DNA of 64,000 nt, taken from contig OZ024741.1 in the NCBI GenBank assembly GCA_964016885.1, positions 16,740,001 to 16,804,000 of the forward strand, given 5' to 3'. Positions 12,817-56,560 of this stretch are shown here, piece after piece (the stretch's first letter is position 1; each line of letters opens with the position of its first letter). This DNA comes from Eledone cirrhosa (Eukaryota). The position numbers and the translations under genes are program-made. The notes under the pieces were generated by a model. That model searched no databases. It was not told the DNA's origin and saw only the letters and a list, made by a program, of their open reading frames with translations.

Positions 12817-12918
12817 TATTTACGACCGTTTCATTGGTAAGTGCAACCTTATATTGCTATACTGCAAATAGCAGCCACTCAATTATAATTGTTGTTCACA
12901 GTCCAAATTTTCAAAATA
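12817..12918 (-). ncRNA. Type I hammerhead ribozyme, U3-A8 core variant
   Basis: uauu-UUGAAAA-u-uugg..ccaa-u-GAAAC-GGUC-GUA-aaua. Confidence 0.7.
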
Positions 12919-15776
12919 GTAAGTTACTCTTGAAATAATTCTTAATATATAGAGAAAAACATTTATTTGGAATTGTATTTGCTAGTATAGAGAGAGAGGA
13001 ATCAGGAGGTGAGGGGACAGACGGCATAGTATAGAGAGAGAGGAAGGGGGAAGAGGTAGGAAGTAGAATGACAAACTGAGATGGAGGGAGGGTAGAGGTG
13101 GAAGGATTCTTTGGTCAGTTTTGATAGCAGACTTCATGTCGTGGAGTGTAGTGAGTTAAAGAGAATTAAATAGATAATAGTGGGAGGGATGGATAGAGAG
13201 GGAGAGAGGGGGGGGGGGATATAAAGAGATAAATATATATATATATATATATACATACACACTACATACACATACATATACATACATATAAAAAATAAAA
13301 ATAAAGATAATAATGACAAAAATAAAAGCAAAGAAGGGGGTGAGAAAGAAGAAAAGAAAAGATAGCCAAGAAGGGGGAAGGAAGGAAGAAAACGAAAAAA
13401 TAGAAGAGGAATGAGGGAGAAGAGGGGGATATATGTATTGGTTTTGTGGGTAATTAAAGGGCTTAAATATAAGAGGGTATATAGTCTAAGTATATGCAGT
13501 TTGTCAGTTGGTAGTAAGAGGTTAAGGGTTCGATTTGTAGTGCGAAAATTTCTCTTTGAGTCTATGGTTACAATAAATTGATCTCTCAATTTTATTGTTG
13601 AGTAACCTATTCTTCGAACTTAAGATGTGGAACAGCTCAAGGTCGCATAATCGACAGCTTCTCATACCACTCCGATATGGGGGCGCGTTCGATAATTTTT
13701 TCCACTTCAGGGTGTATTGATGGTTACTTTCCCTCAGTTGCCAGGTCTTGTTTGCAAGGGTAGTTACATAATGGTGCTGGGAATGTTTCATTGCGTAACG
13801 GTGTGTATACCAACGAGCTTTAAATGTATTCCCAGTCGCTCCGATGTAATACCATTTCTGGTTGTCTGATTCCACTGTGCATTGGTAAACCAGGTTAGAC
13901 TGCATACATTCATTTTGTAATGGACATGTTTCAGGTAGGTGGCAGTTACATTTCTTGTTATGGGCAACTTTGGCATTATTGGTGGGCTGCGATGCCTGAA
14001 CAAGTGTGTTACGTTTTGTTTGCCTATTAGCGGGTGGTTGTGTATTAGATATTCTGTTGTGTTCAGTGGTAATTGTATTGTTATTGTTGTAAATTTGTGT
14101 TTTGGTGTTGTTATGTATCTTTTTAGCGTTAAGCATCTTAATGTGTGCCTCTATATTTGGTGCCGTGGAGTAGGATAGTCTAATAGATTTAGTGTTAAGG
14201 ATTTTGCTGTATCTATGCGAATCTGGAAAGTGCCTATTTATTATTCTAAAGAAAGTAGAGGGTAGGTTAGTACAAATAGAGGTGTTAATATGGGGTTATA
14301 CCAAATATATTTTCTACTGCGTGACTTGTTTGATTTCGATGTTGTATTTCTATTTGCCGTATACTTTGCAGTTCTATGCGTAAATGTGTGTATGCGTGTG
14401 TTTCTGGAGTTTGTGTTATGCGTGTTCGTGTGCGCTTCACAGAGGCTTTCATCTATATATTCTACTCTATCTAAGTGGCCTGCTTTGTCTAATGCGGTAT
14501 TGTAGTATTCTGCATGTTCTTCGAAGATTTGCCGGTTAGATGAGAGGCGGGACATCCTAAGGGATATATTGCGTGGAATGGATTTAATTATTGATAGTGG
14601 GTGGTTTGAGTTACAGTTGATGTATGCTAAGTTTTCATTAATCTTGTGAAAAGGTCTTATAAGTCCCGTATTTAGGTTAAGCGTCACATCTAGAAAGTTC
14701 ACTGTTTTAGTGCTATACTCATACGTTATGCTAAGGCCTAGTTTTCCGAGAGTCTTTCTAATATTCTTACGGAGTCTTTCTATGCTCTGGTTATTTAGGT
14801 TCTTAACTAGGAGAAGGGCGTCGTCTCTGTAGATTCCACCGTGAAGGTCGCTAAACTCGCTTTGTAAACTATGGGCTATGTAAATACCTACTAAGTCTGT
14901 GACTTGAGCCGAGTCGTTAGCCCCCATCGTGATGTCAAAGTTATTTAATCTATCCTTACGTTCCCAATAGGCGTTTTCAAATTTAATTATTGTTTTCCTA
15001 GCAGCTAATATGATTTTTATCTCAACGTCTGTTATGTCAGAATGGGCTTTGGCGAATGCTAAGGCTTTATCCAAGGTGTTGGGGGATATAGATGAGTAAT
15101 AATCGTTAATGTCAAATTGTATAAATTTAGATACTTCTTTGTTAGCTATATTGTTAAACCATTTAATTGCTTCGGTAGCGTTACCCCATAGTTTAATCAC
15201 TAGTTTTTTCTTCATTTGTTCTATCACTCTGTCTAATATGTTTACTAATTTTCCCAATGTCCGATTTGGAAGGGCATATAAGTCTAATAGTGGGGTTATA
15301 ATCAAAATTTACCCTGTGGTCTTTGAGGTTAAATGTGGGGGTACATGGCCTAAGTGGCTCCGTTCTGTCGTCTATTCCTAGGTGTTTGACTATATTGTGT
15401 GCCTCGTTGTTGATGTTTATCAGTGCCGCCTCATTAGTTTTTTTGTATTTCCTATGTAATTCCTTCCGTATGAATCCATCGTATACACATTTGATGTTTT
15501 GTCCGCTTTGACAATAATTCCATTGGTGGTTCGCAGCTTTTTTAGGAATGTATTTATGTCATTCTGGAGTTTATTATTCCTCCGCTTTTTGAATTTGATA
15601 TTCATAATCATCTTCAGTAAGTCCTGTTCAAAGGCATCCAATTGAGGGTTGGTAGGTGGGTTTTTACACGATTTGAAGCCGTATGTTTCCTTGTTATATT
15701 CCACGGTGCGACCATTACGTCCTTTGTCGAAATGGAAAGTTTTCTATCTAACTCTGTGTATAAAGTCGTAACTCAC

Positions 15777-15875
15777 TATTTTGAAAATTTGGACTGTGAA
15801 CAATTATAATTGAGTGGCTGCTATTTGCAGTATAGCAATATAAGGTTGCACTTACCAATGAAACGGTCGTAAATA
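15777..15875 (+). ncRNA. Type I hammerhead ribozyme, U3-A8 core variant (inverted pLTR copy)
   Basis: UUGAAAA at 15781-15787, 72-nt domain II, GAAAC at 15860, GUA at 15869-15871. Confidence 0.7.
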
Positions 15876-15991
15876 CCTGGATAAAATCCTTCTCTTAATG
15901 CTTACCTGTGTTTTCTCTTTTATACTATATATATATATATATATATATATATATATATATATATATAATGTATATTATGTGGGTATGGTGT

Positions 15992-53903: not shown

Positions 53904-53964
53904 TATTATATTATATAAATATATATATAATATATATATTATATATATTATATATATAATATAT

Positions 53965-54554
53965 ATCATCATCATCATCATCATCACCGTTTTACGTCCG
54001 TTCTTCCACGCTAGCATGGGTTAGACGGGTTGTCCTGTTGTGGGCAGTGTCTGGTCGGCTGACCATGCCTTGCTCATACAGGAACTGATCTGGCTTGATT
54101 TCTACAGCTGGATGCCCTTCCTAACACCAACCTCATTTACAGTGAGTGCTGGGTGCTTTTTCGTGGCGCCTACACGTCCACTTTACAGTGTGGGCTGGGT
54201 GCTTTTTTGCCGTGGCACCTCCACGACCACCTTGCGGTGGGGGGGGGGCATATTGTTTATATGCTTCAGCATGTACCCATGGGAGGTCGGGTACCCTGTA
54301 TTACTGTGTGACGCCAGAAGTCACGGTCGTGTGTCATTGACTTTGAGAGGTGTAGTTGGGTAAGGTCGGCTTTTATCACCTCATCCCAAGTCATCTTGGG
54401 TCTCCCCACTCCGCGGTTTCCATCAACTTCTAGTGCTCTGCACCTTTTTATGCAGCTGTCATCCTTCATACGCATCACATGTCCATACCAGCGTAACCGC
54501 CTCTCCTGCACGCAGCATTTGATTCCTCTTATGCTCAGTCTCTCTCTCAATTCA
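53965..54554 (-). mobile_element. RTE-B 3' fragment
   Basis: RRLRWYGHV, GRPKMTW, 3' UTR and (GAT)n tail. Confidence 0.93.
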
Positions 54555-54774
54555 TTTTATAATATATATAATATATATAATATATATAATATATATATAA
54601 TGTAATATATATATTATATATATTATATATATAATATATATAATATATATATATATAATATAATATATATATAATATATATAATATATATATATATATAT
54701 ATATATATAATATATATATATATATATTTAAAATATATATATATAATATATATATATATAATATATATATATAG

Positions 54775-56560
54775 CGGTAGAACACTGGAAGGTAATATCC
54801 GTAGTGGTAGAGCACTCAGTCCATGGGACGAGTTAGGTAGAAGTGGTTACACAACAGTTAGTTCACCATACCGAGAACAATTGTTTCACCTTTGCGGATC
54901 TTCAGCTCGGGATGTGTATGGTTATAGGAACAGGAAGGACAACCGTACGAACGCGCATGCGCAGAAACTCGGTCACTTAACACAGGCAATACTAGACTGC
55001 ATGCGGGGGAGATAACTGCGAAAGTCCGGAAAGTTTTTTAGTTGAAAATAAAATAAAAAAATTAAAAATAAAATTACAAAAAATCACTTCGGAGCCTTGT
55101 AGTTAATCAATAGATGTTTGGTGATGTGTGGACAACGTGTTAAAAACTCACTTCTCGTGTTTAGGCAATCACTATTGCGTAATCTCTTTAGGATAGTTAT
55201 TCGTTCGTCAATACACAAGCCACACGTTGGATTTCCCCTTGCGTATGGCTTGGACTTAGTGATGGCTTTCCATTGAATGGAGTAGCCTATACTTGAGTCC
55301 TTGAGGGACCATACGTGGCTCGCAAGTTTCGTGGATGAACGTCTGTCCGGGTATCTGAAGGTAGACTGGTGGTTCAGGAATCGCTCCTTGAATCGGCCCT
55401 CCACCATGCCCACATAGGATTTAACCTCGTGTGGTTCGTTTGGTCGGTTGGAAGTGACCACAGCTTCATAGATTATAGCTGGTGTGTTGCATTGTTGTTG
55501 AAGGGGACAAGCTTCAGGCTTTCGGCAAGAGCACCCTGGTGTGGTGTTGCTCCTAGGGCTGCTGGTGATGTGGGCCTTCATGTTCTTAGTGCAGGAGTAT
55601 CCTAGTTTAACTTTGTGTCGGTTAAAGATGGAGCGGTATTTGTGACCTATGGGAAAGTGTCTATCTAAGAGGGCTAAAAATGTTTTCCTACATTAGTTTT
55701 AACGTTGAGTGAGAAGGGAGGAGAGAACCAGATAGTTTGTCTATTGTTCTTATTGCTGTTGTTGTTAGCTAACGCCGTGTTATAGTATGGTGCCGCCCTG
55801 TCAAAGATAGCCTTATTAGAGGAGAGGTTTGAGATCCTAGTACTGATATTCTTAATGAAGTTTATAAAAACAGTGGGAGGGTGGCACAAGTCCTTGTGAA
55901 TGTAATTAAGTTTCTCGTTTAGCTTATGGAAGGGTCTGTGGGTGTGTGTGCGAAGGTCTAAATTAATGTCTAAGAAATCTACACTAAGGCCTAAGGCCTA
56001 ACTCATTGAAGGTAGAAGCTAAGTCTTTTTTAAACCAGTCGAGGTCGTGACCACTTTTATGGCTCGATAAAGTCAGTCCATCATCACGCTATATTCCCGT
56101 GTGGAAGTCCGGCAATCTAACACGTAATATGTCTAAGATAAAAAGGCCAACCAAGTCACATACGTCAGCACTGTCAAACGATCCCATGGAGATCCTGAAG
56201 ATGTTGATTTCTTTATCCAGGCTACTCCGTCGTTGAAGAGGATGGTTTTCCGGCAGTGAGCGATGATTTCCCTGTCTAAACCATCGACGGTAGTGTAAGT
56301 GGTAGCAAAGTCCAATGCTTTGTTTAACAGGGTCTCTGAGATCGACGGGTAAAAATCGACAATGTCAAACTGTGGGAACTTCGCTTTATGGGATTTTAAG
56401 GAGTTAAACGACTTAATTACGGAGTCGCTGTTCTCCCACTGGGGCAGGTTGGACTTGGTCCTAATGGTCTTAACTATGTTTCTAAGTATGGCCTTACTGA
56501 CTAGTCCCATATCTGTGCGTGCCGGGTTTATTAGTCTACATGTGGGGTTAGTTTTCAAAT
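54775..56560 (-). mobile_element. 5'-truncated PLE with 3' pLTR
   Basis: CRLINPA, QFDIVDFYPSI, WFSPPF, CSC..CPL..IIY..YVG..FKER..CGLC..CPH. Confidence 0.92.
54871..54910 (-). ncRNA. Compact type I hammerhead ribozyme
   Basis: ccgag-CUGAAGA-u-cc-gcaaa-gg-u-GAAAC-AAUU-GUU-cucgg. Confidence 0.85.

What the first reader, a model, noticed from the sequence alone, without database searches (positions are those of the whole stretch)
12817..54910. Twelve hammerhead ribozyme copies (nine distinct sequences) in one window
Seen: type I hammerhead folds at 12817, 15777, 19670, 20240, 23287, 32518, 33905, 38486, 50451, 51214 and 54871, with mutated paralogs at 31381 and 42585. Each has the core and the pairings for stems I, II and III. 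Many have self-complementary stem III loops (ACAAUUGU, ACGUACGU, AUAUAUAU, ACGU), and triplets are GUA, GUU, GUC or AUA. Known: PLE pLTRs carry minimal hammerheads that cleave as dimers through palindromic stem III. Inference: this is a dense, structurally diverse set of self-cleaving RNAs that protein-based annotation would miss.
Basis: partly seen in the sequence, partly recalled or inferred. Interest (0 to 1): 0.75.

Follow-up and report, generated by a model that had tools for sequence, protein, structure and literature searches.

The report
Hammerhead-laden Penelope transposon ends
The window holds 14 hammerhead-ribozyme motifs from ten jumping-gene families, mostly ends of Hydra-type Penelope retrotransposons predicted to cut their own RNA in pairs; the pairing is known and the density is ordinary for this genome, which likely carries several hundred thousand such motifs, many with an unusually long arm that the Rfam search missed here.

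Summary
Real, largely a known kind. A descriptor finds 11 type I hammerheads (shuffles 0.16); a 12th has a 2-bp stem I; two paralogs have core mutations. Rfam found none. Hosts: Hydra-clade Penelope-like elements (RWK, DKT, CxCX5C, C-terminal GIY-YIG), one Neptune-like element, and two protein-free families (about 480 and 690 nt) resembling non-LTR retrozymes. The window is not special: 138 hits per 1.0 Mb genome sample, roughly 3-5 x 10^5 genome-wide. Support for the fold: only C3-G8 (108) and U3-A8 (17) cores occur; 13 of 16 families have perfect stem III palindromes without this being required; stems covary. New in degree: domain II of 49-87 nt at 8 of 12 sites, structured in 17 of 17 families, and a U3-A8 switch inside one Hydra lineage. 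Cleavage is untested: no RNA run was listed, a pooled test for copy ends at the cut site failed (P=0.11), one retrozyme-like family gives a post hoc hint. The scan noted long-armed Hydra hammerheads before, on other DNA.

The parts
12817..12918 (-). Type I hammerhead, family A: U3-A8 core at 12914, U.U at 10.1/11.1, 75-nt domain II, stem III ACGGUCGU, GUA, predicted cut after 12821
   Evidence: domain II z -2.5
12617..15769 (-). 5'-truncated Hydra-clade element (family A), broken RT + C-terminal GIY-YIG ORF at 13525-15769
   Evidence: 918-aa open frame of the family in L388
15777..15875 (+). Hammerhead of family A in the inverted 3' copy (15768-15931) joined head-to-head to the element; differs from 12914 by a 3-nt indel
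19669..19752 (+). Hammerhead, C3-G8, U.U at 10.1/11.1, 49-nt domain II, stem III hairpin; in fragment 19552-20052 of a protein-free ~690-nt family
20239..20341 (-). Hammerhead, family C: U3-A8, 72-nt domain II, stem III ACAAUUGU, GUU; in the 3' pLTR (20058-20702)
20731..23057 (-). Hydra-clade ORF of family C, frameshifted (RWK, DKT, CxCX5C, GIY-YIG); start codon 235 nt 3' of the predicted cut in the 5' pLTR
23286..23388 (-). Hammerhead identical to 20335 in the 5' pLTR (23105-23751, 96% identical); same strand, 3047 nt apart
31377..31437 (-). Mutated paralog of 32525 (G5A, clipped stem I) in the inverted 3' copy 31349-31437
32518..32577 (+). Hammerhead, C3-G8, C.A at 10.1/11.1, 10-bp stem II, stem III ACCACUGGU, GUA; 3' of a truncated Hydra ORF (31436-32457)
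33905..33988 (+). Hammerhead, C3-G8, G10.1-C11.1, 54-nt domain II, 4-bp stem III hairpin; in fragment 33844-34064 of a protein-free ~480-nt tandem family
37910..38015 (+).
38486..38517 (-). Minimal hammerhead: extra A after A9, 4-bp stem II, ACGU stem III, GUC, 2-bp stem I; 3' repeat of a Neptune-like element
38984..40697 (-). Broken ORF with DKG and CX3CxxC motifs (canonical C-terminal-EN PLE, Neptune-like)
42585..42616 (-). Mutated paralog of 38515 (C11.1A, A14G) in the upstream repeat 42493-43111
50451..50516 (+). Hammerhead, C3-G8, 8-bp stem I, 31-nt domain II, stem III AUAUAUAU, AUA; solo 3' fragment 50372-50628 between (TA)n, probably Hydra
51214..51325 (-). Hammerhead, C3-G8, U.U at 10.1/11.1, 87-nt domain II, stem III ACGUACGU, GUU; 3' of a Hydra EN remnant (51720-51911)
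   Evidence: z -2.9
54871..54910 (-). Short hammerhead, C3-G8, U.U at 10.1/11.1, 2-bp stem II, stem III ACAAUUGU, GUU; 3' of a Hydra ORF (55087-56549)

Best explanation
These are hammerhead motifs at the 3' ends of Penelope-like retrotransposons and their protein-free derivatives, and they likely cut tandem read-through RNA into unit-length, possibly circular templates, most of them predicted to work only as pairs through a palindromic stem III. Shown: fold, host elements, covariation, genome-wide abundance. Inferred: in a tandem such as family C (two identical motifs 3047 nt apart), the two stem III palindromes would swap strands and cleavage would free one ORF-bearing unit that starts 235 nt before the start codon. 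Reverse transcription starts at fixed sites downstream of the cut site (+60 and +204 in families A and C), so genomic copies keep the whole motif. The long domain II is likely a folded appendage that the core tolerates, possibly a handle for the element's protein. Solo fragments and the two mutated paralogs are likely inert passengers.
For: 11 hits vs 0.16 shuffled. In 1.0 Mb only C3-G8 (108) and U3-A8 (17) of 16 combinations exceed background; the other 14 give 0-4 against 0.8-3.2 shuffled. With no stem III requirement, 13 of 16 multi-copy families have perfect even palindromes of 10 different sequences; 5 of 42 shuffle hits do. In 20 relatives of 50459, 8 of 15 predicted pairs show double-sided changes. 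Distal domain II folds below shuffle mean in 17 of 17 long families, median z -1.4. 26 of 30 family A loci picked by protein alone hold a descriptor-passing family A motif. 24 of 58 Hydra EN sites have a same-strand motif within 1.5 kb downstream, 5 of 58 upstream. Predicted monomer fold probability is 5e-8 to 3e-3 for the palindromic types. Tandems occur: 3047 nt, 480-nt trimers, a 310-nt array. Dimer cleavage of PLE hammerheads: PMC4209133 (parts 1-2 of 4 read), PMC6765202 (passages).
Against: No cleavage or expression data. The test for 5' copy ends at the cut site, pooled over four families, gave 7 vs 4.0 expected, P=0.11; families A, 50459 and 33909 alone show no excess. Almost all genomic 3' ends lie downstream of the cut site, so inserted cDNA came from RNA uncut or re-ligated at its last motif. 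In Anolis Poseidon, hammerhead mutants insert normally in vitro and no RNA-seq reads end at the site (PMC11167929, passages). RNAalifold found no common structure for 11 long domain II sequences from different families; the domain II of 19675 is not structured beyond shuffles (z +0.7). Six Hydra ORF remnants in the window have no motif of their own detected. Monomer probabilities ignore tertiary contacts.
Confidence: 0.68

Rival explanations
1. The fold is kept mainly as a protein-binding or packaging structure; cleavage is slow, protein-dependent or dispensable for transposition.
For: PMC11167929 (passages): the Anolis PLE hammerhead cleaves only with the PLE protein and is not needed for insertion in vitro. 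Genomic copies retain sequence on both sides of the site. No pooled excess of ends at the site.
Against: The 3-8 pair is held as a Watson-Crick pair across families, which established hammerhead structure ties to the active conformation; H17 and the core are kept in all families.
Confidence: 0.2
2. The long domain II docks on stem I or on the element's protein and lets the motif cleave as a monomer, so the palindrome is secondary.
For: Long domain II is structured in 17 of 17 families; three families have monomer-closable stem III; plant and fungal PLE motifs are monomer-type (PMC4209133).
Against: Perfect palindromes of many different sequences recur, including the central bases that a monomer loop would leave free; an 8-nt palindrome gives only 2 bp plus a tetraloop in a monomer.
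Confidence: 0.11
3. The motifs are chance matches of a loose pattern in AT-rich repeat DNA.
For: The descriptor was shaped after seeing the sites; about 7 of 138 sample hits are expected by chance; 38486 has a 2-bp stem I.
Against: 11 vs 0.16; an independent 1.0-Mb sample gives 138 vs 7; core and palindrome tests use features not demanded by the scan.
Confidence: 0.01

Closest known systems
Hammerheads of Hydra-clade Penelope-like elements (Craig et al. 2021, PMC8557442; passages, section 11, supplement parts 1-2 with File S2 read), including Hydra-1_oBim
   Same: Type I motif near the 3' end; RWK, DKT, CxCX5C, C-terminal GIY-YIG; (TA)n targets; inverted 5'-truncated copy; U.U at 10.1/11.1 is already visible in many File S2 rows.
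   Different: All Hydra rows of File S2 have C3-G8 and short domain II (up to about 25 nt); here 49-87 nt in the window, up to 115 nt in the sample, with U3-A8 in families A and C. Tails are 69-144 nt, not 30-40. Long domain II (about 50 nt) is listed there only for spike-moss PLE-X elements.
Minimal PLE hammerheads (Cervera and de la Pena 2014, PMC4209133; parts 1-2 of 4 read)
   Same: pLTR location, palindromic stem III, dimer model; U3-A8 reported in Schistosoma; 2-bp helix I reported in D. virilis; 38515 fits this type, with the extra base after A9.
   Different: Most window motifs lack the conserved G10.1-C11.1 and the extra base, and have a longer stem III and domain II. Counts there are thousands per genome.
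Non-LTR retrozymes (Cervera and de la Pena 2020, PMC7229834, passages; Li et al. 2026, 10.64898/2026.07.22.740005, part 1 of 5)
   Same: Protein-free tandem units with one type I motif each (33909 family, 480-nt trimer; 310-nt array in L140); low GC; proposed PLE derivatives.
   Different: Units of about 480 and 690 nt exceed the 150-450 bp quoted; domain II is 49-54 nt; mostly monomers or partial dimers ending in (TA)n; circular RNA not shown here.
Poseidon PLE of Anolis (Frangieh et al. 2024, PMC11167929; passages)
   Same: Two fixed 3' ends downstream of the hammerhead that define a tail; hammerhead just upstream of the ORF in tandems.
   Different: There the motif overlaps the start codon and is minimal; here the cut site lies 235 nt upstream of the start codon.

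Membership tests
Type I hammerhead ribozyme | Core CUGANGA (or U3-A8 variant), GAAA, NUH in type I order | tested here: met
   12 sites; core combinations; not met at 31381 and 42585
Type I hammerhead ribozyme | Stems I, II, III with covariation | tested here: met
   stem I only 2 bp at 38515
Type I hammerhead ribozyme | G10.1-C11.1 pair of the usual consensus | tested here: not met
   G-C at 2 of 12 intact sites; U.U at 7; U.U is a known tolerated variant (PMC3088659 passage)
Type I hammerhead ribozyme | Match to an Rfam hammerhead model | tested here: not met
   none among 58 matches at E<=5
Type I hammerhead ribozyme | Loop 1-loop 2 tertiary contact | not tested
   no contact search was run
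Type I hammerhead ribozyme | Site-specific self-cleavage | not testable with these tools
   no assay; no RNA holder listed
Hydra-clade PLE | RWK and DKT motifs | tested here: met
   L388 918-aa frame; window ORFs (RWK in family C, DKT in A and C)
Hydra-clade PLE | C-terminal GIY-YIG with CxCX5C linker, CxxC and CxH | tested here: met
   motif match by eye to section 11 of PMC8557442; Pfam gave no RT or GIY-YIG hit on these fragments
Hydra-clade PLE | Insertion into (TA)n, pLTR and inverted copy | tested here: met
Hydra-clade PLE | Phylogenetic placement with published Hydra RTs | not tested
Hydra-clade PLE | Canonical (short) hammerhead | tested here: not met
   long domain II in families A, C, 37913, 51322; met for 54905 and 32525
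Non-LTR retrozyme (33909, 19675 families) | No protein coding; tandem units each with a type I motif | tested here: met
   33909: no PLE protein match adjoining the unit upstream in 15 loci, dimers and a trimer; 19675: ~690-nt unit, only partial tandems seen
Non-LTR retrozyme (33909, 19675 families) | Expressed as circular RNA | not testable with these tools
   no RNA holder listed
Neptune-type PLE (38515) | DKG motif and CX2-5CxxC linker | tested here: met
   clade not confirmed by a tree
Type SGC (scrambled) hammerhead | Non-circular block order | tested here: not met
   all window hits are in CGS (type I) order

The most novel reading that the evidence does not exclude
This genome carries the largest hammerhead load yet described (3-5 x 10^5 motifs, dozens of families), including about 7 x 10^4 of a long-armed class invisible to Rfam, in which each family's own stem III palindrome acts as a partner-recognition code and the long arm is a protein handle; the 19675 family records cleavage in vivo through copies that start just after the cut site.
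Probability: 0.25. Interest if true: 0.72.

Novelty: new variant of a known kind. Interest (0 to 1): 0.42.

Why it matters
What hammerheads do for Penelope-like elements is open. One genome with dozens of recently active families, each with its own palindrome, natural C3-G8/U3-A8 swaps and arms from 11 to 115 nt, is a ready set for testing dimer specificity and the need for cleavage. It also shows that curated models miss a large class: Rfam saw 0 of 12 here. The window itself is an ordinary sample of that genome, so the local cluster has no special meaning.

Tried and rejected
Rfam scan: no hammerhead. Local cluster: rejected, flanks 19 hits per 200 kb, genome sample 138 per Mb. Naiad origin: rejected, the EN is C-terminal and the motif is DKT. 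Expression: no RNA holder listed; no reads were laid. Fossil of cleavage in copy ends: a first pass was swamped by cross-family matches; the pooled test on tail-selected copies was not significant; only the 19675 family shows a post hoc excess. In one search, loci already in the window or duplicated were left out (39, 37, 37 and 35 loci used; one gave no primary match), and ends at microsatellite breaks or reference edges are not true ends. Common structure of long domain II across families: none from RNAalifold on 11 sequences. Scrambled-order hammerheads in the window: none (the shuffle control of that script crashed and was not repeated). Lunse et al. 2017 and Arkhipova et al. 2017 were not held; they may describe long or variant PLE motifs, so novelty of the long arm is uncertain. 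Supplements of the 2026 bioRxiv preprint were not seen.
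Full report
OBSERVATION. Rfam finds no hammerhead among 58 matches at E<=5. A descriptor allowing U3-A8 cores, a 10.1/11.1 mismatch and domain II up to about 125 nt finds 11 type I folds; 100 shuffles give a mean of 0.16. 38486 passes only with a 2-bp stem I. 31381 has G5A; 42585 has C11.1A and A14G. The window thus holds 12 intact-core motifs and two mutants in ten families. 20335 and 23382 are identical; 12914 and 15781 differ by 3 nt. Four sites have U3-A8, seven have U.U at 10.1/11.1, and eight have a domain II of 49-87 nt.

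HOSTS. The window lies in a 3.0-Gb genome; the repeat content and Hydra elements suggest an octopus-like animal (inference). It is packed with broken PLE ORFs. They carry DKT, CxCX5C, a C-terminal GIY-YIG with CxxC and CxH, and RWK, the marks given for the Hydra clade in section 11 of PMC8557442. No tree was built. Family C is a full unit: two 96%-identical pLTRs, each with the motif, 3047 nt apart. Family A and 32525 have an inverted 3' copy at the truncated 5' end, a known PLE layout. 51322 and 54905 follow Hydra EN remnants; 37913 has a Hydra EN upstream in 5 of 14 other copies; for 50459 the link is indirect. 38515 and 42614 flank an ORF with DKG and CX3CxxC, a Neptune-like element. 33909 and 19675 belong to protein-free families: about 480-nt units in dimers and a trimer, and an about 690-nt unit seen only as monomers and partial tandems. 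These resemble non-LTR retrozymes. First-look candidate counts are 430 to 3,813 per family and 60,396 for the Hydra EN; these are not copy numbers.

DENSITY. 100 evenly spaced 10-kb stretches (80 from the four largest contigs, 20 from 15 smaller ones) give 138 hits against 7 shuffled; 200 kb of flank gives 19. One stretch with a 310-nt array contributes 16. Bootstrap 95% range is 101-184; a 64-kb resample reaches 11 with probability 0.26. The window is ordinary. Extrapolation gives about 3.9 x 10^5 motifs (3.4 x 10^5 without the array), roughly 3-5 x 10^5. The largest count I saw in print is 126,247 for axolotl (PMC7229834, passage), from a different descriptor, so the comparison is loose. 23 credible sample hits have domain II >=45 nt, about 7 x 10^4 genome-wide. 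The 168 hits of sample, flanks and window fall into 51 clusters, 26 with more than one member.

IS THE FOLD SELECTED? Varying positions 3 and 8 over all 16 combinations, C3-G8 gives 108 and U3-A8 17; the rest give 0-4 against 0.8-3.2 shuffled. Dropping the stem III requirement, 13 of 16 multi-copy families have perfect even palindromes, of 10 different sequences; 5 of 42 shuffle hits do. In 20 relatives of 50459, 8 of 15 predicted pairs change on both sides; these are related sequences, so events are fewer than cells. With the basal 4 nt removed, domain II folds better than the shuffle mean in 17 of 17 long families (median z -1.4; 8 below -1.5). Against: no common structure for 11 long domains across families, and 19675 is unstructured by itself (z +0.7). 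Families A, C, 51322 and 37913 align around the core and share sequence 3' of it; two use U3-A8 and two C3-G8. 26 of 30 family A loci chosen by protein alone hold a passing family A motif.

MECHANISM. Shown: fixed 3' ends downstream of the predicted cut, about +60 and +204 in A and C, +51 and +120 in 50459, +80 and +190 in 33909. This matches the two internal RT start sites and 'tail' of PMC11167929 (passages). The start codon lies 235 nt 3' of the cut in tandems of A and C. Inferred: a read-through RNA with two motifs pairs the palindromes, cuts, and frees a unit that may circularise. Predicted monomer probabilities are 5e-8 to 3e-3 for palindromic types, 0.21 for 32525 (no tertiary terms). 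Three families can close stem III alone. Solo fragments have no partner in cis.

TEST FOR CLEAVAGE TRACES. Copies were picked by sequence 3' of the cut only and their 5' ends mapped. Pooled, 7 ends fall at -3..+10 against 4.0 expected, P=0.11. Two of 18 family A copies start at +1 and +3. In the 19675 family 6 of 21 ends fall at +4..+23 (post hoc P about 0.002); A, 50459 and 33909 show no excess. This is a hint only. Short insertions are favoured anyway and the window was chosen after seeing the data. No RNA run was listed. PMC11167929 reports that the Anolis motif needs protein, is dispensable for insertion in vitro, and leaves no read ends, which keeps the 'binding structure' rival alive.

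COMPARISON. Hammerheads in Hydra elements, including an octopus one, are in File S2 of PMC8557442, with U.U at 10.1/11.1 in many rows, but all Hydra rows are C3-G8 with short domain II; about 50-nt domains appear there only in spike-moss PLE-X. U3-A8, 2-bp helix I and dimer cleavage are in PMC4209133; U.U is noted in PMC3088659. Seven searches showed no paper on long-armed Hydra hammerheads or a cephalopod census; a 2026 octopus repeat annotation has no occurrence of 'hammerhead' or 'ribozyme'. Two key papers were not held. Earlier notes of this scan describe long-armed Hydra hammerheads in this and other genomes and scrambled-order motifs in this genome; none of the latter was found in the window.

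VERDICT. Observation confirmed with corrections. It works like a PLE hammerhead and is a variant of that kind; catalytic activity is untested. Interest rests on the genome-wide load, the long arm and the family-specific palindromes, not on this window.

Noticed in passing
L286-L315, L346-L391 (families A and 50459): In head-to-head inverted insertions the two arms often stop at nearly the same 5' position: 15 of 31 pairs within 15 nt, permutation mean 5.6, 0 of 20,000. The inverted arm nearly always ends at the short 3' end. Fits self-priming (proposed in PMC3846280, passages) or two starts on one RNA.
   Followed up: partly
19735-19744 and 40 copies of the family: Stem III of the 19675 family varies 4-6 times more than its surroundings (0.158 vs 0.02-0.04), mostly C-to-T and G-to-A; a palindrome mutation hotspot or subfamily structure are both possible.
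   Followed up: partly
L140:4837-6387 and opposite strand: Array of 310-nt units, each with a short hammerhead (ACGCGU stem III), on both strands; a classical retrozyme-like repeat.
   Followed up: no
L199, L200, L201, L270, L272, L285: Several 19675-family copies start at -395 to -401, about one full unit upstream of the 3' end, as a single pass round a circular template would give; a junction artefact of the reference is not excluded.
   Followed up: no
20252-20261 (-) and 23299-23308 (-): In family C the 3' strand of stem II reads CUGAUGA overlapping GAAAC, a decoy core inside a U3-A8 motif.
   Followed up: no
9512-12053 (-), 24786-26048 (+), 26555-28926 (+), 34300-37181 (+), 7523-8021 (-), 1439-1687 (+): Further Hydra ORF remnants with no hammerhead of their own detected; 3' ends broken or replaced by insertions in some.
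   Followed up: partly
16745-19247 (+): LTR-retrotransposon remnant with protease, RNase H and integrase Pfam matches, mostly below cut-off.
   Followed up: no
28926-31188 (+): Helitron remnant (Helitron_like_N, Pif1 2B) inserted among PLE pieces.
   Followed up: no
4151-7443 (+), 43373-45903, 47251-48543, 56733-58217, 62600-64000: Many copies of a LINE with AP endonuclease, RT and a PHD finger, ending in (GAT)n then (TA)n.
   Followed up: no
L061-L160: Non-standard triplets are common in the sample: AUA 38, AUC 6, CUU 4 of 138, with matching 15.2-16.2 pairs.
   Followed up: partly
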